Assembly: GCA_012727685.1 (NCBI GenBank)
Contig: JAAYGO010000215.1
Coordinates: forward strand, 1 to 52,785
Reading direction: 5' to 3'
Length of the DNA: 52,785 nt
DNA from: Bacillota bacterium
GTDB lineage: Bacteria > Bacillota > Dethiobacteria > DTU022
Part shown: positions 35,252 through 43,195 of the stretch, in pieces
Layout of the letters: every line of letters starts with the position of its first letter
Position numbering within the stretch: position 1 is the stretch's first letter
The notes under the pieces: generated by a model
The model's input: only the letters and a program-made list of their open reading frames with translations
Told to the model about the DNA's origin: nothing
The model's database searches: none
Made by a program: the position numbers and the translations under genes

Positions 35252-36073
35252 ATGTTCAGCAATCAAGCTTTGCTGGCCGCAGCCCGGGCCGCCCGGGAGA
35301 GGGCTTACGCCCCCTATTCCGCTTTTAAAGTGGGCGCCGCCTTGCTGACGGAGGAAGGGCGCCTCTTTACCGGGGCTAATATCGAAAACGCTTCCTATGG
35401 CCTCACCATCTGCGCCGAGCGTACGGCTGTAGCGGCGGCGGTTAACGCCGGCTGCCGGCATTTTAAGCGCATCGCCATCGTTGCCGATTGCGCGCCGCCG
35501 CCGGCGCCCTGCGGCGCCTGCAGGCAGGTCCTGGCGGAACTGGCACCGCGGATTGACGTGGTAATGGGCAACCTGCACGGGGCCGTTGTGGAGCACAACC
35601 TTGCCGTGCTGCTGCCTGACGCTTTCCGTGCCGATCAGCTTCGACTGGAGGCGGGGGGAGACCCCGCCGAGGCGGAAGAGTGGCGCCTGCCGCTCAACAT
35701 GAACCCGATCGGGTATGTGGAAAACGACTTTCGCGAACCGCGCGCTGTCCCTAAGAATTACCGCGAGCTGCTCTCCCGGATCGTGATCGCCCCGGATCTG
35801 GAGGAAGGCCTCTATCGCATCGAGGAAGAGCCGCGCCTGATCGTCATCGCTTACCTGCACCGCTCGCGGGGGTATGCGCTGAAGGAGGAGCGCCGTGGCC
35901 GGGGCAGTGCCGTGTACGGTGTCTTTGCCTGCCGGACTTCCCAGAGGCCCAACAAGCTGGCGTTAACCGAGGTGGAGCTGGTCAAGCGGGAGGGTAATAT
36001 CCTTACGGTTAGGGGGCTGGACTTGATTAACGGCACCCCGATCCTTGACTTAAAGCCCGTGATCGCCGGGTAA
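35252..36073 (+). CDS. cdd: Cytidine deaminase fused in frame to a TrmO/YaeB-like (UPF0066) domain
   Basis: Residues about 1-128: Cdd (CAERTA, PCGACRQV, LLPDAF). Residues about 147-273: PIGYVENDF, GVFACRTSQRPNKLAL, GLDLINGTPILDLKPV, typical of TrmO. No stop codon between the two parts. Confidence 0.8.
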   Translation: MFSNQALLAAARAARERAYAPYSAFKVGAALLTEEGRLFTGANIENASYGLTICAERTAVAAAVNAGCRHFKRIAIVADCAPPPAPCGACRQVLAELAPRIDVVMGNLHGAVVEHNLAVLLPDAFRADQLRLEAGGDPAEAEEWRLPLNMNPIGYVENDFREPRAVPKNYRELLSRIVIAPDLEEGLYRIEEEPRLIVIAYLHRSRGYALKEERRGRGSAVYGVFACRTSQRPNKLALTEVELVKREGNILTVRGLDLINGTPILDLKPVIAG

Positions 36074-36497: not shown

Positions 36498-37382
36498 ATG
36501 CACCGTTCCGGCTTCGCAGCGCTTATCGGCAGGCCCAATGTGGGCAAATCGACTTTGCTCAATGCCCTGGCGGGCGAAAAAATCGCCATTGTTACCGATA
36601 AACCGCAAACCACCCGCAACCGCATCCGCGCGGTGTTGACCAGGGATGAAGCCCAGGTGATCTTCATCGATACTCCAGGTTTACATAAACCGAAACACAA
36701 GCTCGGCACAGCCATGGTCCAGGCGGCACGCGCCACCATGCGCGAGGTGGACGTGATCTGCTTTGTGGTGGAGGCGCAGCGCGCTCCCGGCCCCGGTGAT
36801 CGCCATATCGCCGCCCTCTTCGACAAGGGAGCGGCGCCGGTTTTCCTCGTCCTCAATAAAATCGATCTGATCGGACCGCAGGAAATAGAAAAGCAGCTCT
36901 CCCTTTACCGCGAACTTTTTGACTTTGATGCCTGCTTCCCCGTTTCCGCCCTTGCACGGAGCAAGCTGGACGCCCTGGTAGAGGCGGTGATCGCGCGCCT
37001 CCCCGAAGGGCCTCGCTATTACCCGCCGGAGATGATCACCGACCAGCCGGAACGGTTTATTGCCGCGGAAATAATCCGCGAAAAAATGATCAATGCCACC
37101 CGCGATGAAATACCTTTTTCCATCGCCGTTGTTGTTGAAGAAATGAGACCCCGGGAGGGGAAAGAGATCATCGATATCCGGGCCGTTATTTACGTGGAGC
37201 GCCCCTCCCAGGCCGGGATTGTGATCGGCAAGGGGGGCTTTTTGCTCAAGGAAGCCGGCAGTGCGGCGCGAGCGGAGCTGGAGCTGCTGCTGGGACAGCA
37301 GGTTTACCTGGACCTCTGGGTCAAAGTAAAACGCGATTGGCGCAACCGCGAGGGAAGCCTGCAGGAATTCGGGTATTCATAA
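36498..37382 (+). CDS. era: GTPase Era
   Basis: GRPNVGKSTL, DTPG, NKID and a C-terminal KH domain. Confidence 0.95.
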   Translation: MHRSGFAALIGRPNVGKSTLLNALAGEKIAIVTDKPQTTRNRIRAVLTRDEAQVIFIDTPGLHKPKHKLGTAMVQAARATMREVDVICFVVEAQRAPGPGDRHIAALFDKGAAPVFLVLNKIDLIGPQEIEKQLSLYRELFDFDACFPVSALARSKLDALVEAVIARLPEGPRYYPPEMITDQPERFIAAEIIREKMINATRDEIPFSIAVVVEEMRPREGKEIIDIRAVIYVERPSQAGIVIGKGGFLLKEAGSAARAELELLLGQQVYLDLWVKVKRDWRNREGSLQEFGYS

Positions 37383-37405
37383 TCATAAAGGGAAGAGAAA
37401 AGAGA

Positions 37406-38134
37406 ATGGCCGATAGAACTTTTAAAACCGATGCGCTGGTCCTGCTCAGCCGGCCCCTCGGAGAAGCGGATCGCCTCATCACCCTGCTCACCTGGGAGCG
37501 GGGCAAAATTTCGGCCGTAGCCCGGGGCGCCCGTAAAACGAAAAGCAAGCTCGCCGCCGGCGTGGACCTTTTTACTTATGGCCAGTACATCTTATACCAG
37601 GGGCGCGGACTGGCCACCATCACCGGCCAGCAGGTAAAGGAACATTTTCAGTATTTTCGGGGAGATGTAGCCCTCTATCCCTTTGGCCTTTACCTGGCCG
37701 AGTTGACCGGAAAAGCCATTAGCGGTGAAGAACCGTGCCGCCCTGTCTGCCACCTGTTACTGGAAGGATGGCGCTTGCTGGGAGAAGATCTTGACCGGGA
37801 ACTGCTCTGCCGGGCTTTTGAACTGAAACTGGCGGATCTGCTCGGCTACCGCCCCAACCTGAACGGCTGCTTCCTTTGCGGTTCGCCGGAGACCGCCTGG
37901 TTCAACCAGGCCCATGGCAGCCTGACCTGTAAACAGTGCGGTGGCGGCGGCGTGAGGGTGGCTCCGGATACTGTGGCGCTGGCCGTCAGGCTGCTGGAGG
38001 CCCCCTTAAGGCAGGTGCGGCTGCTCCGTGCCCTCTCCCGCCAAAAGGAAGAACTTGCCGGCCTCACCGGGAGCTTTTTAAAATACCATCTCGAAATCGA
38101 CAGCTTGCGTTCCCTGCGCTTTTTCAGGGATTGA
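37406..38134 (+). CDS. recO: DNA repair protein RecO
   Basis: The N-terminal OB region DALVLLSRPLGEADR is typical. CxxC...CxxC zinc motif (CFLCG...CKQCG). Follows era. ATG 37406. Confidence 0.9.
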   Translation: MADRTFKTDALVLLSRPLGEADRLITLLTWERGKISAVARGARKTKSKLAAGVDLFTYGQYILYQGRGLATITGQQVKEHFQYFRGDVALYPFGLYLAELTGKAISGEEPCRPVCHLLLEGWRLLGEDLDRELLCRAFELKLADLLGYRPNLNGCFLCGSPETAWFNQAHGSLTCKQCGGGGVRVAPDTVALAVRLLEAPLRQVRLLRALSRQKEELAGLTGSFLKYHLEIDSLRSLRFFRD

Positions 38135-38231
38135 AACAGTCGGGACAGGTCAGAATAAAGCCGATCCTCCATGCGGATAAAAGCCTCCGCAGATCGTTAA
38201 AATAAGACTAAAAAGGAGGCTCGCAAACGCC

Positions 38232-38636
38232 ATGGAGATTCCGCTGGATGCCATTGAAGCTCTGCGCGCGAGGGTGAACTTGACTTATCGCCAGGCCAGG
38301 GACCTGCTGGAGGAAACCGGGGGCGACCTGGTTGAAGCATTGATCTATCTGGAAGAGAACAAGGAAAAATTTATTGATCAGGCGGCCGGCCGGGGCAGGG
38401 AGTTTGTCCATCAAGCCCGCCATCTTGCCAGCCGGCTGCACCATACCAGGGTCAAGGTCAAGGTCAAGGATAAGACCTTGCTGGAGTTGCCGGTCACGGT
38501 GACCGCCCTGGGAGCGGCGGTTTTTCCCAAGGTGGCCGCTTTGGGCATGATCGGGCTGCTCCTTTCGCGCGGTTCGATCGAGGTGAAGGGAGACCAGGCT
38601 ACAGAGACGGAGCCGGAAGCGGACAAGAGCCGGTGA
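38232..38636 (+). CDS. DUF4342-like protein with an N-terminal UBA/TS-N-like domain
   Basis: AIEALRARVNLTYRQARDLLEETGGDLVEALIYLEEN is like the EF-Ts N-terminal/UBA fold. AAAGGAGG RBS. Confidence 0.65.
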   Translation: MEIPLDAIEALRARVNLTYRQARDLLEETGGDLVEALIYLEENKEKFIDQAAGRGREFVHQARHLASRLHHTRVKVKVKDKTLLELPVTVTALGAAVFPKVAALGMIGLLLSRGSIEVKGDQATETEPEADKSR

Positions 38637-38667
38637 AGTCGTCCGCAAAAAAGTTTGCCATTTTCCC

Positions 38668-38696
38668 TTGACAATATTTGCTCCGGTTGCTACTAT
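38668..38696 (+). promoter_or_regulatory. Sigma-A promoter of the T-box leader
   Basis: TTGACA (38668-73), 17 nt, TACTAT (38691-96). Confidence 0.6.
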
Positions 38697-38702
38697 AAAT
38701 TT

Positions 38703-38939
38703 TAAAAATAAAAATGATCGTGCCGTGAAGGAAAGGGATGCCGGAGCAACACTTTGCAAAACAATTTGCAAAATAGAGCGAGCCGGGGAGGGTGCAAGCC
38801 CGGCAAACAGCCGGCAGTGGCAGTCCGGAGCAGATAACTCATAATTCGAGCGGGTTCGCCTTTTGGCGGGCCAAGTAGGGTGGAACCGCGGGAAAACCTC
38901 CCGTCCCTAGGTTTAGGTGGGGGCAGGTGGTTTTTTTTT
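38703..38939 (+). promoter_or_regulatory. T-box riboswitch leader (glyQS-like, no Stem II) with terminator/antiterminator
   Basis: T-box sequence AAGTAGGGTGGAACCGCG (38873-90). AG bulge AGAGCGA and distal loop GGGTGCAA in gccggg/cccggc (38775-38805). Stem III gggttcgcc-tttt-ggcgggcc. Antiterminator GGG..CGGG-aaaacct-CCCG.CCC. G/C-rich terminator 38897-38930 plus T9 (38931-39). Confidence 0.8.
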
Positions 38940-39002
38940 AAAAAAAGGCAAAGTAAGGTGCGGTTATTAAATTAGTGGGAAGGGCAGGAACTGTGATGAC
39001 CT

Positions 39003-39020
39003 ATATAGTATATACTATAT
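39003..39020. promoter_or_regulatory. Perfect 18-bp AT-rich palindrome ATATAGTAT/ATACTATAT; candidate operator/promoter of ccpN
   Basis: Exact palindrome about 40 nt upstream of the ccpN-like ATG. It overlaps -10-like TATACT/TATAGT hexamers. cctatat recurs at 39047-39053. Confidence 0.4.
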
Positions 39021-39061
39021 GGTTTGCTAAATCCAGAACAGGCTAGCCTATATGCTTTTTA

Positions 39062-39697
39062 ATGGAGGTGGCGGTAATCGACCTGAGTGAAAGACAAAAG
39101 GAGATCCTGGAGATCGTGAAAGCATTGGGCCCGATTTCCGGAGAAGAGATTGCCGCCCGGTTAAATGTCTCGCGGGCGGCGCTGCGGCCATGCCTGGCAG
39201 TGCTGACCATGTCTGGGCTGCTCGCGGCACGTCCCCGCGTCGGCTACTATTTTACCGGCAAAGAGAAGCACAATCTGCTAGCCGATTACCTGGAGCGCTT
39301 TAAGGTCAGTGAGATCAAGGCTGTACCCGCGGTAGTGCGCGAGGAGACGCCGGTGAGCGAAGCCATTGTCACCCTTTTCGTTGAGGATGTGGGCACTCTT
39401 TTCGTGGTCTCCGAGGAGGGCTGCCTGCAGGGGGTTGTTTCCCGCAAAGATCTGCTGAAGGCAGCCATCGGGACTACCGACCTCACTAAGATTCCGGTAA
39501 CCGTGATCATGACAAGAATGCCGAATATTGTGACAATCGATCCCGAGGCGAGCATGCTGGAGGCAGCCAGGAAAATTGTTGAATATCAGATCGATGCCCT
39601 GCCCGTAGTAAAAGAGCATTCCAAGGGTAAACTGAAGCTGCTGGGAAAGGTCACCAAGACCACGTTAGTCCGGTTGCTGGCGGAAATCAGCAGCTAG
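39062..39697 (+). CDS. ccpN: CcpN-like transcriptional repressor (HTH plus CBS pair)
   Basis: N-terminus ERQKEILEIVKALGPISGEEIAARLNVSRAALRPCLAVLTMSGLLAARPRVGYYFTGK aligns with my memory of Bacillus CcpN. Two CBS motifs. Followed by a PDRP gene, as ccpN-yqfL. Confidence 0.75.
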   Translation: MEVAVIDLSERQKEILEIVKALGPISGEEIAARLNVSRAALRPCLAVLTMSGLLAARPRVGYYFTGKEKHNLLADYLERFKVSEIKAVPAVVREETPVSEAIVTLFVEDVGTLFVVSEEGCLQGVVSRKDLLKAAIGTTDLTKIPVTVIMTRMPNIVTIDPEASMLEAARKIVEYQIDALPVVKEHSKGKLKLLGKVTKTTLVRLLAEISS

Positions 39698-39718
39698 TCA
39701 CGGAGGAGGTTGGTTTGC

Positions 39719-40534
39719 TTGAGCGAGGCCGCAGAAAAGACTATCGTCTACATTCTCTCAGACTCAGTGGGCGATACAGCCGAACTGGTAGTTAAAGCCG
39801 CCGCCAGCCAGTATGATTCCGGCAGCATGGAACTGCGCCGGTTTCCTTTTGTCAACGACCCGGCCGTCATAACCGAGATCTTTGAAGAGGCCGCGGGAAA
39901 CAACAGCATCGTGGCCTATACCCTGGTTCTGCCCGAGCTGCGCCGCGCCGTGGAGCGTGAAGCAGCCCGTTTTGGCGTAGCCACCGCCGATATTATGGGG
40001 CCCACCATGGAGGCCCTGGCCAGCGTGATGAAAAGGGACCCCTACCTGGAACCGGGGCGGATCCGGCGCCTGGATGAGGATTATTTCAAGCGGATCGCCG
40101 CCGTGGAGTTCGCGGTTAAATATGACGACGGCAAAGACCCGCGCGGCCTGATCCAGGCCGAAGTGGTGTTAATCGGCGTATCCCGAACCTCGAAAACCCC
40201 ACTGAGCATGTACCTGGCGCACAAGCGGGTGCTGGCGGCGAACCTGCCCCTGGTGCCCGAAGTGGATCCGCCGGAAGAGCTGTTCTGGATTCCTGCGAAA
40301 AAAGTGATCGGTTTGGATATCGATCCCTACCAGTTGCGCCGTATCCGCCGGGAGCGCTTGAATGCCCTTGGCTTGGATACCCATGCCAGCTATGCCTCCC
40401 TGGAGCGGATCATGGAGGAGCTGGAATATGCCCGCCGGATTTTTAGGAAGGTGGGCTGCATGATTTTCGATGTTTCAAATAAAGCAGTAGAAGAAGTAGC
40501 CAACAAAATCTTACAGGTGATCAGAGGAGGTTGA
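39719..40534 (+). CDS. Pyruvate,phosphate dikinase regulatory protein (PDRP, YqfL/DUF299)
   Basis: IYILSDSVGDTAE N-terminus, P-loop GVSRTSKTP. TTG 39719 lies about 9 nt after GGAGG; the track ORF opens at 39710. Confidence 0.85.
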   Translation: MSEAAEKTIVYILSDSVGDTAELVVKAAASQYDSGSMELRRFPFVNDPAVITEIFEEAAGNNSIVAYTLVLPELRRAVEREAARFGVATADIMGPTMEALASVMKRDPYLEPGRIRRLDEDYFKRIAAVEFAVKYDDGKDPRGLIQAEVVLIGVSRTSKTPLSMYLAHKRVLAANLPLVPEVDPPEELFWIPAKKVIGLDIDPYQLRRIRRERLNALGLDTHASYASLERIMEELEYARRIFRKVGCMIFDVSNKAVEEVANKILQVIRGG

Positions 40535-40540
40535 TGTTCG

Positions 40541-43195
40541 ATGTCTGGGCAATCCGGACAATGGGTCTACCGCTTTGCGGAAGGCCGTGCAGAAATGAAA
40601 AATTTATTGGGCGGCAAAGGGGCCAACCTGGCGGAAATGTCGCGGGTCGGCTTGCCGGTGCCTCCCGGGTTTACGATCACTACGGCAGCCTGTAACGCCT
40701 ATTACGAGCGGGGCCGGCAGATCTGGCCCGAGCTGGCGCAGCAGATCGAGGAGAATCTCGCCTATTTGGAAAAAGAGACAGGACGCAGCTTTGGCGGCGA
40801 CAAGCCGCTCCTGGTTTCGGTCCGCTCCGGAGCGATGATCTCCATGCCGGGGATGATGGATACCATTCTCAACCTGGGGCTCACCCCGAAAACGGTCGAG
40901 GCTCTGGCCGCGGAGTCGTCCGACCGGCGCTTTGCCATGGACTGTTTTCGCCGTTTTATCCAGATGTTTGCCGACGTGGTCTTAAAAGTGGAGTCATACC
41001 ATTTTGAGAATATTCTTACAGAAAAGCGCAATGCGCGGAATGTGCGCACCGATGCCGAGCTGCAGGCCGAGGACCTGGCGGAGGTAGTGGAAGAGTTTCT
41101 TAAAGTGGTGCGCCGCGAAACGGGGACCGAATTTCCCTTTGATCCCAGGGAACAGCTTTTCCTGGCGGTCAAGGCGGTCTTCGACTCGTGGCATAACCCC
41201 CGCGCCACCGTCTACCGGCAGATCAACCGTATTCCCGACGATCTGGGCACGGCGGTAAATGTGCAGGCCATGGTTTTCGGCAACCTGAATAACCAGAGCG
41301 GTACCGGCGTCGCCTTTACCCGCAGCCCCGCTACCGGGGAGCCGGTCATCTATGGCGAATACCTGCTCAATGCCCAGGGCGAAGATGTCGTGGCCGGCAT
41401 TCGCACTCCCCGCCCGATCGCGGAAATGGCGCAGGAATTGCCTGAGATTTATAAACAATTTGTAGATGTGTGCCGGAAGCTGGAGGCCCACTATCGAGAC
41501 ATGCAGGATATAGAGTTCACCATTGAAAACGGCAAACTCTACATTCTGCAAACGCGGAATGCCAAGCGCACCGCCGCTGCGGCAGTCAAAGTGGCCGTGG
41601 ACCTGGTGCGCGAAGGGGTCATCAGCAAGGATGAAGCCCTGCTGCGGGTGGAACCGGATCAACTGGACCAGTTGCTGCACCGCCGGATCGATCCGGAAGC
41701 GAAGCTGAACGTGCTGGCCTACGGCCTCCCCGCGTCGCCGGGAGCAGCCACGGGCAAAGTGGTCTTTGATCCCGACCGGGCGCAGGAGCTGGCGAGCGAA
41801 AACGTGGCCGTGCTGCTGGTGCGCTCTGAGACCACTCCCGATGATATTCACGGCATCAAGGCGGCCCAGGGTGTGCTCACCAGCCGCGGCGGGATGACCA
41901 GCCATGCCGCCGTGGTGGCACGAGGCATGGGCAAACCCTGCGTCTGCGGCTGCGAGGCGCTCAAGATCGATGCCGCCAAGGGCAAGTTCTATATTGACGG
42001 TCAGGAATATGCAGAAGGCGAAGTGCTCTCCATTGACGGGGCTACCGGGAGAGTAATCCTGGGCGAGGTGCCCTTAATCGATCCGGAGCTGACCCCCGAA
42101 TTCAAAGAGCTGCTATCCTGGGCCGATGCGAAGCGGCGCCTGAGGGTGCGGGCCAATGCCGATACCCCGGACGACGCCGCGCTGGCCGTGGAGCTCGGCG
42201 CCGAAGGGATCGGCCTTTGCCGGACCGAGCATATGTTTATGGATAAGGCGCGGGTGCCGGTGGTGCAGAAAATGATCCTCGCCGCCACCCTTAAAGAGCG
42301 GGAAGCAGCCATGGCCGAGCTGCTGCCGATGCAGAAAGATGATTTTAAGGGGATCCTGCAGGCCATGACCGGCTTGCCGGTGACGATCCGGCTCCTCGAC
42401 CCGCCGCTGCACGAGTTCCTGCCGAACCGCGAAGCGCTGCTGCTCGAAGTGGACCGCCTGCGCCGTGAAGGTGGCGACGGGCAGCTTCTGTTGCAGCGGG
42501 AAGAGCTGCTGCTGAAGGTGCGGGCCCTTGCTGAACAGAACCCCATGCTCGGGCATCGCGGCTGCCGCCTCGGGCTGGTCTACCCCGAAATCTACAGCAT
42601 GCAGGTGACAGCCATCTTCCAGGCGGCAGTGGAGCTGGTTAACGAAGGCATCGCGGCCGAGCAGATCAAGCTGGAGATCATGATCCCGCTGGTTGGCCAC
42701 GGCGCTGAACTGGCGCGGATGAAAAAAGTCGTTGACGATGCCGCCGCCGCGGTGCTTAAGGAGGCGGGGCTGGAACTCCCCTACCTGGTGGGGACGATGA
42801 TCGAGCTGCCGCGGGCCTGCATGGTCGCAGACGAGCTGGCGCAAGAAGCGGAATTTTTCTCCTTCGGCACCAACGACCTCACCCAGACCACGCTCGGCTA
42901 CAGCCGGGATGACGCCGAAGGCAAATTCTTGCCGTTTTACCTGGAGCATAAGATCCTGCCGGCCAACCCCTTCATGGAGGTCGACCGCGACGGGGTCGGC
43001 GCGCTCGTGCGCATCGCCATGGAAAAAGGGCGGAAGACACGCCCCGACATCAAGCTGGGCATCTGCGGCGAACACGGCGGAGATCCGGCGAGCATCGAGT
43101 TCTTCCACTCGGCCGGCCTCCATTACGTCAGTTGCTCGCCATACCGCATTCCCATCGCCCGCCTTGCCGCGGCCAGGGCGGTTCTGAAAGGTTAA
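40541..43195 (+). CDS. ppdK: Pyruvate,phosphate dikinase
   Basis: 884 aa. Phosphohistidine motif GGMTSHAAVVARG. N-terminal ATP-grasp (GGKGANLAEM). C-terminal PEP-utilising TIM barrel (GICGEHGGDP). Confidence 0.95.
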   Translation: MSGQSGQWVYRFAEGRAEMKNLLGGKGANLAEMSRVGLPVPPGFTITTAACNAYYERGRQIWPELAQQIEENLAYLEKETGRSFGGDKPLLVSVRSGAMISMPGMMDTILNLGLTPKTVEALAAESSDRRFAMDCFRRFIQMFADVVLKVESYHFENILTEKRNARNVRTDAELQAEDLAEVVEEFLKVVRRETGTEFPFDPREQLFLAVKAVFDSWHNPRATVYRQINRIPDDLGTAVNVQAMVFGNLNNQSGTGVAFTRSPATGEPVIYGEYLLNAQGEDVVAGIRTPRPIAEMAQELPEIYKQFVDVCRKLEAHYRDMQDIEFTIENGKLYILQTRNAKRTAAAAVKVAVDLVREGVISKDEALLRVEPDQLDQLLHRRIDPEAKLNVLAYGLPASPGAATGKVVFDPDRAQELASENVAVLLVRSETTPDDIHGIKAAQGVLTSRGGMTSHAAVVARGMGKPCVCGCEALKIDAAKGKFYIDGQEYAEGEVLSIDGATGRVILGEVPLIDPELTPEFKELLSWADAKRRLRVRANADTPDDAALAVELGAEGIGLCRTEHMFMDKARVPVVQKMILAATLKEREAAMAELLPMQKDDFKGILQAMTGLPVTIRLLDPPLHEFLPNREALLLEVDRLRREGGDGQLLLQREELLLKVRALAEQNPMLGHRGCRLGLVYPEIYSMQVTAIFQAAVELVNEGIAAEQIKLEIMIPLVGHGAELARMKKVVDDAAAAVLKEAGLELPYLVGTMIELPRACMVADELAQEAEFFSFGTNDLTQTTLGYSRDDAEGKFLPFYLEHKILPANPFMEVDRDGVGALVRIAMEKGRKTRPDIKLGICGEHGGDPASIEFFHSAGLHYVSCSPYRIPIARLAAARAVLKG

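What the first reader, a model, noticed from the sequence alone, without database searches (positions are those of the whole stretch)
38668..39061. Intact glyQS-type T-box leader with no aminoacyl-tRNA synthetase gene behind it
The leader has a promoter, a Stem I with AG bulge and GGUGCAA-type distal loop, Stem III, the T-box sequence, a foldable antiterminator and a terminator with T9. Like glycine T-boxes it lacks Stem II. Its acceptor-binding bulge reads UGGA, which pairs with a U73-CCA end (characteristic of tRNA-Gly, also tRNA-Cys). A GGC-A sits at 38813-38816 on the 3' side of Stem I, where a specifier is expected. In Bacillus, glyQ-glyS lie exactly here, between recO and ccpN. In this window the next gene is ccpN-like, followed by PDRP and ppdK. 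Either the synthetase genes were lost or relocated and left a functional-looking leader, or uncharged tRNA now gates read-through into a gluconeogenesis regulator operon. Stem I also carries an extra ttgcaaa-acaa-tttgcaa hairpin (38754-38771).
Basis: partly seen in the sequence, partly recalled or inferred. Interest (0 to 1): 0.65.

Follow-up and report, generated by a model that had tools for sequence, protein, structure and literature searches.

The report
Orphan glycine T-box leading ccpN operon
A tRNA-sensing RNA switch that normally controls the glycyl-tRNA synthetase genes has lost those genes by a clean deletion, still looks evolutionarily maintained, and now sits directly in front of a carbon-metabolism regulator operon, so it may link glycine-tRNA charging to central metabolism.

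Summary
Window 38668-38939 holds a consensus promoter and a Stem II-less, glyQS-type T-box leader with a K-turn, a GGC specifier, an AG bulge and distal loop, Stem III, a UGGA T-box bulge, an antiterminator, and a terminator with nine Ts. It is followed by ccpN, PDRP and ppdK instead of glyQS. Ten independent assemblies show the same junction, so it is not a misassembly. Relatives carry recO-DUF4342-leader-glyQ-glyS-ccpN-PDRP-ppdK, so about 3 kb of glyQS was cleanly excised in the ancestor of this species and a sister lineage (L011).

"Intact" is overstated. The Rfam score is 49 bits against a gathering score of 93, while two relatives' glyQS leaders score 92. The AGUA/GAA S-turn of the specifier loop is lost. 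The "extra hairpin" is a 12-nt tandem duplication. The specifier is at 38819-38821, not 38813-38815.

Even so, tRNA-sensing positions are 94% identical between the two orphan lineages, against 83% at 4-fold sites and 72% at other leader positions (p = 0.003 and 6e-5). This indicates purifying selection after the deletion.

Best reading (about 0.5): the leader is still a tRNA-Gly-responsive attenuator, now feeding ccpN-PDRP-ppdK alongside a proximal ccpN promoter. Main rival (about 0.27): a decaying relic kept for its terminator, as a third lineage (L017) retains only the terminator. The location of this genome's GlyRS gene is unknown.

The parts
37337..38134 (+). recO, upstream conserved neighbour
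   Evidence: NCBIfam TIGR00613 RecO, E 1e-36. Same position in all relatives.
38232..38636 (+). DUF4342 gene, the last gene before the leader. No terminator of its own, so its transcripts should run into the leader terminator.
   Evidence: Pfam PF14242 on the called gene. The only terminator-like site in 38400-39300 is at 38903-38924.
38668..38696 (+). Leader promoter: -35 TTGACA, 17-nt spacer, TG-extended -10 TACTAT. The predicted transcription start is near 38703.
   Evidence: 10 of 12 matches, TG present. The -35 block TTGACAA is shared with the glyQS promoters of L012, L013, L015 and L016.
38722..38831 (+). Stem I. Contains the K-turn (38726-29 / 38828-29), the specifier loop (5' side 38733-39, 3' side 38816-23), the AG bulge AGCGA (38777-81), the distal helix (38782-87 / 38799-804) and the distal loop GAGGGUGCAAG (38788-98).
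   Evidence: Rfam alignment. The full-length MFE structure reproduces these helices. 58 of 60 structural or motif positions are identical to L011.
38819..38822 (+). Specifier GGC (glycine) plus the 3' purine A. The flanking S-turn motif is absent: AGUA on the 5' side now reads GGAU, and GAA on the 3' side now reads AGU.
   Evidence: The covariance-model alignment places GGC+A in the specifier and purine columns. L012 and L013 have GAAAGGCR in the same register. Census of 55 leaders.
38748..38771 (+). 12-nt tandem duplication (AACACTTTGCAA / AACAATTTGCAA) that forms the extra 7-bp hairpin in the 5' strand of Stem I. Specific to this lineage.
   Evidence: family D2, 92% identity. Absent from L011 and from the glyQS-linked leaders.
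38848..38874 (+). Stem III (38853-60 / 38865-72) with the flanking GAGCG (RRRNG) and AA motifs of the aminoacylation-sensing domain.
   Evidence: Fold. Motif definition quoted in PMC7778990. Pair changes relative to L011 keep pairing; one is a C-G to U-A change by manual alignment.
38876..38909 (+). T-box sequence and antiterminator with the 7-nt bulge UGGAACC (38881-87). UGGA pairs with a U73-CCA acceptor end.
   Evidence: Fold at -13.9 kcal/mol. The 18 nt at 38876-93 are identical in L011. The block CAAGTAGGGTGGAACCGCGGGA is identical in L011, L012 and L013.
38897..38939 (+). Intrinsic terminator: a hairpin that shares its 5' strand with the antiterminator, followed by T9.
   Evidence: -18.2 kcal/mol, z = -2.1. 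This is the only part of the leader retained in L017.
38940..38970 (+). Deletion scar. Bases up to about 38949 resemble the former terminator-to-glyQ RBS spacer. Bases 38961-38970 resemble the last codons and stop of glyS. About 3 kb of glyQS is missing in between.
   Evidence: Local alignments to L013 (post-terminator region) and L109 (glyS 3' end). The junction is shared with L011 at 72.7% identity. The alignments are short, so the exact breakpoints are inferred.
38981..39050 (+). Conserved region just upstream of ccpN, a candidate proximal promoter and operator. Contains a weak -35 AGGGCA (38981-86), GGAAC (38987-91), a -10 TATAGT (39004-09) inside the perfect palindrome TATAGTATATACTATA (39004-19), and TAGCCTA (39044-50).
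   Evidence: The pattern is unique in the window, with 0 expected by chance. It occurs upstream of ccpN in L011, L017, L018 and L019 and is also seen upstream of ccpN in L109, L110, L100, L107 and L108, whatever lies further upstream. It is 91% identical to L011. L013 has TTAGCA-17-TATAGT at the homologous place. The promoter function is inferred.
39062..39697 (+). ccpN (HTH plus CBS-domain repressor of gluconeogenic genes), the first gene downstream of the leader.
   Evidence: NCBIfam NF053704 CcpN, 290 bits against a cutoff of 260.
39710..40534 (+). Pyruvate, phosphate dikinase regulatory protein (PDRP).
   Evidence: NCBIfam NF003742, 311 bits.
40541..43195 (+). ppdK, pyruvate, phosphate dikinase. 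Last gene of the putative operon; the next gene, dacA, is convergent.
   Evidence: TIGR01828, 1353 bits. Gene order.

Best explanation
The element is a genuine glyQS-derived, glycine-specific (GGC) T-box transcription attenuator. Its original cargo, glyQ-glyS, was removed by a clean deletion of about 3 kb in the common ancestor of this species and a sister lineage.

Proposed mechanism:
1. Transcripts start at the strong promoter at 38668-38696. Transcripts reading through from recO-DUF4342 also enter the leader.
2. By default they stop at the terminator (38897-38939).
3. When uncharged tRNA-Gly accumulates, its elbow docks on the Stem I platform, its anticodon pairs with GGC, and its free U73-CCA end pairs with the UGGA bulge.
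4. This stabilises the antiterminator, and RNA polymerase reads on into ccpN-PDRP-ppdK.
5. The signal adds to a separate, conserved proximal ccpN promoter/operator.

Relatives have no terminator between glyS and ccpN, so T-box-dependent read-through into ccpN probably already existed. The deletion only made it direct.

Shown: the anatomy, the deletion, homology to the glyQS leaders, and purifying selection on the tRNA-binding parts. Inferred: the tRNA response, actual read-through, and any physiological logic. One possible logic is that PPDK supplies PEP towards 3-phosphoglycerate, serine and then glycine.
For: - All T-box modules are present and in order.
- The promoter is homologous to relatives' glyQS promoters.
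- Relatives have leader-glyQ-glyS-ccpN-PDRP-ppdK at this locus.
- The glyQS-less loci form a clade, ((window, L011), L017), and the window and L011 share the same scar. The deletion therefore predates their split.
- Since that split, sensing-only positions (Stem I helices, K-turn, AG bulge, distal loop, codon, Stem III with flanks, T-box 5' strand; none in the terminator) are 95/101 identical. 4-fold sites are 560/673 identical (Fisher p = 0.003) and other leader positions 58/81 (p = 6e-5).
- Stem I alone is 58/60 identical and the T-box 5' strand 18/18.
- The base-pair changes seen keep pairing: U-A to U-G, G-C to G-U, C-G to U-A by manual alignment, and U-G to U-A.
- The unconstrained parts (promoter flank 68%, scar 73%) are at least as diverged as 4-fold sites, so recent transfer cannot explain the conservation.
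- No terminator lies between glyS and ccpN in L012 or L013.
- Functional streptococcal glyQS T-boxes also lack the GAA/AGUA signature (PMC11404447).
- The leader sequence is present in two metatranscriptome assemblies.
Against: - The Rfam score is 49 bits, against 91.8 and 91.7 for the L012 and L013 glyQS leaders.
- The S-turn, thought to present the specifier (PMC2879506), is missing. The three bases 5' of GGC differ completely between the window (AGU) and L011 (GCA), so that part is drifting.
- Only 1 of 55 true glyQS leaders lacks both S-turn motifs.
- This lineage carries a 12-nt duplication inside Stem I.
- The -35 and part of the -10 of L011's leader promoter are disrupted.
- L017 has deleted everything except the terminator, so the input is dispensable.
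- Eight other loci from independent lineages that lost glyQS here kept no leader.
- ccpN has its own conserved upstream element.
- No RNA contig spans the terminator.
- The selection test rests on one comparison partner, a contig of 0.86x coverage with frameshifts.
- ccpN-PDRP-ppdK has no established link to glycine.
Confidence: 0.5

Rival explanations
1. Decaying relic. After the glyQS deletion the leader no longer responds to tRNA. It terminates constitutively, and what is kept matters only as the terminator of the recO-DUF4342 transcript and as an insulator in front of ccpN. ccpN is expressed solely from its proximal promoter. The apparent conservation of the sensing domain reflects function that ended only recently, or limited data.
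For: - S-turn lost and drifting.
- Score drop to 49 and 58 bits.
- Duplication in Stem I of the window lineage.
- L011's promoter is damaged.
- L017 retains only the terminator.
- Anoxybacillaceae and other lineages that lost glyQS keep no leader.
- A conserved proximal ccpN regulatory element is present in all clade members.
- No read-through RNA was seen.
Against: - Stem I (58/60) and the T-box 5' strand (18/18) are not needed for termination, yet they are the most conserved parts.
- The terminator's own 3' strand is only 17/21 identical.
- The window's leader promoter is closer to consensus than those of relatives.
- The AG bulge, distal loop, the RRRNG/AA flanks of Stem III and the UGGA bulge are all intact.
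Confidence: 0.27
2. Stand-alone leader RNA. The strong promoter and efficient terminator produce an RNA of about 235 nt whose conserved tRNA-binding surfaces act in trans, for example by binding or buffering uncharged tRNA-Gly. It would not control downstream genes in cis.
For: - The tRNA-binding parts are constrained while the specifier loop and terminator 3' strand are not.
- The promoter is consensus-like.
- RNA contigs in X26 and X28 cover just 38724-38891.
Against: - The antiterminator pairs are perfectly conserved, which is expected for a cis switch.
- The RNA contigs are no deeper than random fragments of neighbouring genes.
- L011's promoter looks weak.
- I found no precedent for trans-acting T-box leaders.
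Confidence: 0.08
3. Changed specificity. With the specifier loop remodelled, the triplet directly before the [purine][UCC helix] reads GCA in the window and GCG in L011. Both are alanine codons that differ only at the third position, so the switch may now sense tRNA-Ala or have relaxed codon reading.
For: The sequences are read directly. The difference between the lineages is synonymous in that register.
Against: - The covariance-model alignment and homology to L012 and L013 place GGC in the specifier columns.
- The UGGA bulge matches a U73 discriminator (tRNA-Gly) and not A73 (tRNA-Ala), from established tRNA identity rules.
- The extra base is explained more simply by a broken top pair of the lower helix (A-U changed to A.G and A.A).
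Confidence: 0.04
4. Assembly artefact. glyQS is really present and the contig is chimeric or collapsed.
For: None found.
Against: The 1.6 kb spanning DUF4342, leader and ccpN is 100% identical in six independent assemblies from JGI, ENA and Logan and 99.7-99.9% in four more. Two further lineages (L011, L017) also lack glyQS here.
Confidence: 0.01

Closest known systems
glyQS T-box riboswitch of Bacillus subtilis, Geobacillus kaustophilus and Oceanobacillus iheyensis (Rfam RF00230, Stem II-less class)
   Same: Same module order: promoter, Stem I with K-turn, GGC specifier followed by a purine, AG bulge (AGCGA) and GGUGNRA-type distal loop, short linker without Stem II, Stem III, UGGA T-box bulge in the antiterminator, and a competing terminator. 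Same genomic position after recO. It is a direct homologue of relatives' glyQS leaders.
   Different: No glyQS follows it; the next genes are ccpN-PDRP-ppdK. The AGUA/GAA S-turn is absent, Stem I carries a 12-nt duplication, and the score is below the Rfam gathering threshold.
Streptococcal glyQS T-boxes (S. pneumoniae, S. pyogenes) described in PMC11404447
   Same: These are glycine T-boxes that lack the conserved 3' GAA and have a non-AGUA 5' motif in the specifier loop. They keep the codon, the adjacent purine and the T-box bulge, and they were shown to interact with tRNA.
   Different: They still precede glyQS and belong to a different lineage. Their loop sequences differ from the GGAU / AGU and GCA found here.
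[quoted passage not shown] 2008, PMC2494555)
   Same: A T-box leader whose downstream gene is not a synthetase, a biosynthetic gene or a transporter.
   Different: Neither ccpN nor a dikinase appears in that paper's supplementary lists. Here the origin by deletion of the synthetase genes is traceable, and post-deletion constraint can be measured.
Independent loss of glyQS at the recO-ccpN locus in Anoxybacillaceae and others (Geobacillus, Anoxybacillus, Thermolongibacillus, Pallidibacillus, Pueribacillus)
   Same: The same conserved neighbourhood, with recO followed directly by ccpN-PDRP and no glyQS.
   Different: Those lineages keep no T-box remnant, only a recO terminator and a TTGCAA-17-TATAAT-like ccpN promoter. 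The window keeps the whole leader.

Membership tests
T-box riboswitch (RF00230), glyQS-type | Rfam covariance model at or above the gathering score (93 bits) | tested here: not met
   No hit at the gathering threshold. 49.0 bits, E 1e-9, in a local search covering model positions 1-219. Relatives' glyQS-linked leaders score 91.8, 91.7 and 14 bits, so the threshold is not decisive for this Stem II-less class.
T-box riboswitch (RF00230), glyQS-type | Stem I with a K-turn (GA motif) at its base | tested here: met
   UGAA at 38726-29 opposite GA at 38828-29, aligned to the model's UGA...GA columns. Identical in L011.
T-box riboswitch (RF00230), glyQS-type | [quoted passage not shown] | tested here: inconclusive
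   GGC 38819-21 plus A 38822 sit in the specifier and purine columns and in register with GGC-R of L012 and L013. However, one extra base separates the purine from the helix, an alternative register reads GCA, and the downstream genes are unrelated to glycine.
T-box riboswitch (RF00230), glyQS-type | S-turn (loop E) motif in the specifier loop: 5' AGUA and 3' GAA | tested here: not met
   The window has GGAU and AGU; L011 has GGAU and GCA. Of 55 glyQS leaders, 52 have AGUA, 52 have GAA before GGN-R, and only 1 lacks both. Functional exceptions exist in streptococci.
T-box riboswitch (RF00230), glyQS-type | AG bulge plus distal loop forming the tRNA-elbow platform | tested here: met
   AGCGA at 38777-81 and GAGGGUGCAAG at 38788-98. 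Identical to L011 and near-identical to L012 and L013.
T-box riboswitch (RF00230), glyQS-type | Stem III with RRRNG and AA flanks (aminoacylation-sensing domain) | tested here: met
   GAGCG at 38848-52, an 8-bp Stem III at 38853-72, and AA at 38873-74. The motif is quoted in PMC7778990.
T-box riboswitch (RF00230), glyQS-type | Conserved T-box sequence forming an antiterminator with a 7-nt bulge UGGN, mutually exclusive with an intrinsic terminator | tested here: met
   The antiterminator (38876-38909, -13.9 kcal/mol, bulge UGGAACC) and the terminator (38897-38930 plus U9, -18.2 kcal/mol) share the strand 38897-38909.
T-box riboswitch (RF00230), glyQS-type | Controls a synthetase, biosynthesis or transport gene for the specified amino acid | tested here: not met
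   The downstream genes are ccpN, PDRP and ppdK. There is no GlyRS gene anywhere in the 52.8-kb window.
T-box riboswitch (RF00230), glyQS-type | Read-through stimulated by uncharged cognate tRNA | not testable with these tools
   This needs in vitro transcription or a reporter assay. The metatranscriptome contigs are too sparse to show termination or read-through.
Non-functional riboswitch relic (pseudo-leader) | Substitutions accumulate at the neutral rate regardless of structural role | tested here: not met
   Sensing-only positions are 94.1% identical to L011, against 83.2% at 4-fold sites (p = 0.003) and 71.6% at other leader positions (p = 6e-5). This rests on a single low-coverage comparison partner.

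The most novel reading that the evidence does not exclude
A glycine-tRNA-sensing T-box has been exapted from synthetase control to control of a central-carbon regulatory operon (ccpN, PDRP, ppdK). Charging of tRNA-Gly would then directly tune the PEP-pyruvate node and the gluconeogenesis repressor. It would be a riboswitch kept by selection after its original target genes were deleted, working with a specifier loop that has no S-turn.
Probability: 0.4. Interest if true: 0.65.

Novelty: new variant of a known kind. Interest (0 to 1): 0.5.

Why it matters
T-box riboswitches are almost always wired to genes for the amino acid they sense. In surveys, 62% precede synthetases, 30% precede biosynthesis or transport genes, and only about 2% precede unrelated genes (PMC2494555).

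Here the evolutionary path is visible:
- The ancestral operon, leader-glyQS-ccpN-PDRP-ppdK.
- A clean excision of the synthetase genes.
- One lineage pair that keeps the sensor under measurable constraint.
- One lineage that trimmed it to a bare terminator.

If the leader still works, it shows how a riboswitch can be rewired to a new regulon simply by deleting its cargo. It would also link aminoacylation status to carbon-flux regulation in an anaerobic-digester Firmicute. If it does not work, it is a well-dated example of how a T-box decays: the S-turn goes first and the platform and T-box bulge last. Either way, it warns annotators against inferring a downstream gene's function from a T-box specifier.

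Tried and rejected
- **Genome-collection scan with CcpN.** It did not find the source genome or its GlyRS gene, but it was still useful as a broad survey of the locus.
- **First metagenome pattern scan.** The variable-gap pattern returned nothing, although the pattern matches local loci.
- **Second metagenome pattern scan.** The fixed-gap pattern returned 9 loci. Three are distant ccpN upstream regions (L100, L107, L108). None is a new orphan leader.
- **Metatranscriptomes X25-X31.** Leader contigs exist in X26 and X28. All genes are covered only by scattered fragments of 150-400 nt at similar depth, so I rejected these data as evidence for either termination or read-through.
- **L013 versus L015 as a decay-rate control.** I rejected it because their 4-fold identity is only 52%, far more diverged than the window versus L011 (83%).
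- **Low Rfam score as proof of decay.** I tempered this after finding a 14-bit leader in front of an intact glyQS in L015.
- **S-turn loss as proof of death.** I tempered this after finding functional S-turn-less streptococcal T-boxes and L042.
- **Small ORFs in the interval and the antisense ORF 38208-38771.** None has any support.
- **Locating GlyRS with a GlyQ homolog search plus sample co-occurrence.** I did not run it. An alpha2-type enzyme would be missed and co-resident relatives would confound the result.
- **Literature searches.** I found no description of a T-box upstream of ccpN or ppdK.
Full report
**What is in the window**

Bases 38668-38939 on the + strand contain a sigma-70-type promoter, TTGACA-17-TACTAT with a TG extension. 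They also contain a full-length match to the Rfam T-box model at 38716-38911: 49 bits, E 1e-9 in a local search, model positions 1-219.

The modules read from the alignment and from folding are:
- K-turn: UGAA at 38726-29 opposite GA at 38828-29.
- Specifier loop: 5' side 38733-39, 3' side 38816-23.
- AG bulge AGCGA at 38777-81.
- Distal helix and the 11-nt loop GAGGGUGCAAG at 38788-98.
- A short linker with no Stem II.
- Stem III at 38853-72, flanked by GAGCG and AA.
- T-box and antiterminator at 38876-38909 with bulge UGGAACC (-13.9 kcal/mol).
- A competing terminator at 38897-38930 followed by nine Ts (-18.2 kcal/mol).

The flanking genes are era, recO and a DUF4342 gene upstream, and ccpN (NF053704, 290 bits), PDRP and ppdK downstream. 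No GlyRS gene lies anywhere in the 52.8-kb window, which comes from a spore-forming Firmicute of anaerobic digesters.

- The GGCA at 38813-16 is part of the helix GCCGGC. The model alignment and homologous leaders put the specifier at GGC 38819-21, followed by A 38822.
- The leader does not reach the Rfam gathering score of 93 bits.
- The "extra hairpin" is a 12-nt tandem duplication, 38748-59 / 38760-71, 11 of 12 identical. No relative has it.
- The specifier loop lacks the AGUA/GAA S-turn signature. It reads GGAU on the 5' side and AGU before the codon.
- In a census of 55 glyQS-linked leaders from the fetched loci, 52 have AGUA, 52 have GAA-N0-3-GGN-R, 50 have both, and one (L042) has neither.

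**Not a misassembly, and where it came from**

The 1.6 kb spanning DUF4342, leader and ccpN is 100% identical in six independent contigs from JGI, ENA and Logan assemblies and 99.7-99.9% identical in four more.

Relatives with 72-83% CcpN identity (L012, L013/L014, L015/L016, L108, L018, L109) have recO-DUF4342-leader-glyQ-glyS-ccpN-PDRP-ppdK, or at least the glyS 3' end directly upstream of ccpN. Of the 80 distant Firmicute loci from the genome scan, 53 have glyS as the nearest recognised gene upstream of ccpN. The window promoter shares its -35 block with the glyQS promoters of those relatives.

The interval after the T-run is a deletion scar. Bases 38930-38949 resemble the terminator-to-glyQ RBS spacer of L013. 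Bases 38961-38999 align to the last codons, stop and downstream spacer of glyS in L109. The whole glyQS coding region, about 3 kb, was therefore excised.

**Who shares the deletion**

A CcpN tree groups the glyQS-less loci as ((window, L011), L017), sister to glyS-bearing lineages.
- L011 (91% CcpN identity) has the same scar and keeps the leader. It lacks the 12-nt duplication, and its promoter is damaged.
- L017 (87%) has only 144 nt between DUF4342 and ccpN. Everything from the promoter to the 5' half of the antiterminator is gone, and only the terminator hairpin and T-run remain.
- Eight other loci from independent lineages that lost glyQS at this locus (Geobacillus, Anoxybacillus, Thermolongibacillus, Pallidibacillus, Pueribacillus and others) keep no T-box remnant.

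**Is the orphan leader decaying or maintained?**

Evidence for decay:
- The orphans score 49 bits (window) and 58 bits (L011) against 91.8 and 91.7 for the L012 and L013 glyQS leaders.
- The loss maps to the specifier loop. The three bases before GGC differ completely between the window (AGU) and L011 (GCA).
- The top pair of the lower helix is broken differently in each lineage.

Evidence that tempers this:
- L015's leader scores only 14 bits although glyQS follows it.
- Functional streptococcal glyQS T-boxes also lack GAA and AGUA (PMC11404447).

Evidence for maintenance, from the window-versus-L011 comparison:
- 4-fold degenerate sites in the four flanking genes are 83.2% identical (560/673).
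- The promoter flank is 68% identical and the scar 73%.
- Structural and motif positions of the leader are 94.9% identical (112/118), against 71.6% (58/81) for the remaining leader positions (p = 7e-6).
- Restricting to tRNA-sensing positions that are not part of the terminator gives 95/101 (94.1%). This is p = 0.003 against 4-fold sites and p = 6e-5 against other leader positions. Stem I alone is 58/60 and the T-box 5' strand 18/18. The terminator's own 3' strand is a neutral-like 17/21.
- The few changes in helices keep pairing. They include a C-G to U-A change in Stem III by manual alignment; the automatic alignment scores one of these Stem III pairs as broken.

Because the scar is shared, this constraint acted after the deletion. 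The caveat is that it rests on one partner sequence, from a contig of 0.86x coverage with frameshifts. Random errors would blur the pattern rather than create it.

**How it most likely works**

Transcripts from the leader promoter, and read-through from recO-DUF4342, which has no terminator of its own, end at 38939. The exception is when uncharged tRNA-Gly stabilises the antiterminator, in which case polymerase continues into ccpN-PDRP-ppdK.

ccpN also has its own conserved upstream element, GGAAC-N15-AGTATATACTAT...TAGCCTA, with the perfect palindrome 39004-19. This element is present whatever lies upstream in the clade. It is 91% identical to L011. In L013 the homologous place is a predicted TTAGCA-17-TATAGT promoter.

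No terminator separates glyS from ccpN in L012 or L013, so T-box-dependent read-through into ccpN was probably ancestral. The anatomy, the origin and the constraint are shown. The tRNA response and the read-through are inferred. A physiological rationale (PPDK to PEP to 3-phosphoglycerate to serine to glycine) is speculation.

**RNA evidence**

Two metatranscriptome assemblies contain contigs covering 38724-38891, and none spans the terminator. The same libraries cover every gene on the contig with scattered fragments of 150-400 nt at similar depth. The data show neither enrichment of the leader, nor termination, nor read-through.

**Comparison with what is known**

The element works like, and descends from, the glyQS T-box of Bacillus and its relatives. 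It fails three membership criteria: the gathering score, the S-turn, and an amino-acid-related cargo. It meets the others.

Surveys report about 2% of T-boxes upstream of unrelated genes (PMC2494555). Neither ccpN nor a dikinase appears in that paper's lists, and my literature searches found no T-box upstream of ccpN or ppdK.

I classify it as a new variant of a known kind: an orphaned but apparently maintained glycine T-box heading a carbon-regulator operon.

**Verdict**

| Reading | Probability |
|---|---|
| Still a tRNA-Gly-responsive attenuator | about 0.5 |
| Relic kept for its terminator | about 0.27 |
| Stand-alone leader RNA acting in trans | about 0.08 |
| Changed specificity (GCA/GCG read as alanine) | about 0.04 |
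| Assembly artefact | about 0.01 |

The remainder is unassigned. Interest: 0.5. The location of this organism's GlyRS gene remains unknown.

Noticed in passing
window 38981-39050 (palindrome 39004-39019); also L011, L017, L018, L019, L100, L107, L108, L109, L110, and L101/L105: A conserved element, GGAAC-N15-AGTATATACTAT followed by TAGCCTA, with the perfect 16-bp palindrome TATAGTATATACTATA, lies upstream of ccpN throughout the clade. The same GGAAC-N15-AGTATATACTAT also lies upstream of FMN-reductase-like genes in unrelated metagenome contigs. It is a candidate promoter (-10 TATAGT) with an overlapping operator, possibly for CcpN autoregulation.
   Followed up: partly
L015:2705-2876 and L016 (same region): The leader in front of an intact glyQS scores only 14 bits against the Rfam T-box model. 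The AG bulge, distal loop, the AGUA before the T-box and the GGC specifier are all altered, yet the leader is more conserved than 4-fold sites relative to L013 (72% versus 52%). It may be a divergent or repurposed glyQS leader.
   Followed up: partly
L017:493-640: In the 87% relative, the glyQS leader is trimmed to its terminator hairpin and T-run, placed 20 nt after the DUF4342 stop codon. The T-run merges into the native spacer that follows glyS, which suggests deletion between T-rich microhomologies.
   Followed up: partly
L038, L040, L050, L072, L074, L091, L094, L098 (recO-ccpN intergenic regions): Anoxybacillaceae (Geobacillus, Anoxybacillus, Thermolongibacillus), Pallidibacillus and Pueribacillus have independently lost glyQS from this locus and keep no T-box remnant. 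L030 (Tissierellales) has a T-box motif 1.56 kb upstream of ccpN with about 1.9 kb between DUF4342 and ccpN. L067 and L068 (Planococcus) have about 1.9 kb between recO and ccpN. I did not identify what fills these gaps; an alpha2-type GlyRS gene is one possibility.
   Followed up: partly
window 38816-38826 and L011:708-722: In the register 'codon, purine, UCC helix', the orphan leaders read GCA (window) and GCG (L011). Both are alanine codons that differ only at the third position. The UGGA bulge fits tRNA-Gly (U73), not tRNA-Ala (A73), so this is probably coincidence.
   Followed up: partly
window 38931-38946: The terminator's T9 is directly followed by A7, making a palindromic T/A run. On the opposite strand this would give the same hairpin a T-run, so the terminator could work in both directions.
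   Followed up: no
window 35252-36073: A single 273-aa ORF combines a cytidine deaminase domain (residues 4-130) with a TrmO/TsaA N-terminal domain (residues 148-271). The same fusion is called in relatives' contigs.
   Followed up: no
L059 (DASQNU010000019.1) and L081 (JAIMBK010000010.1): Contigs labelled Candidatus Bathyarchaeia archaeon and Armatimonadota carry Firmicute-type loci: ccpN-PDRP in L059, and recO-DUF4342-glyQS-ccpN-PDRP-ppdK in L081. This is likely bin contamination.
   Followed up: no
L042:6720-6900: This is the only one of 55 glyQS-linked leaders that lacks both the AGUA and GAA motifs of the specifier loop (it reads AGGAUU and GUAUUGGCG). It parallels the orphan leaders, but glyQS is still present.
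   Followed up: no
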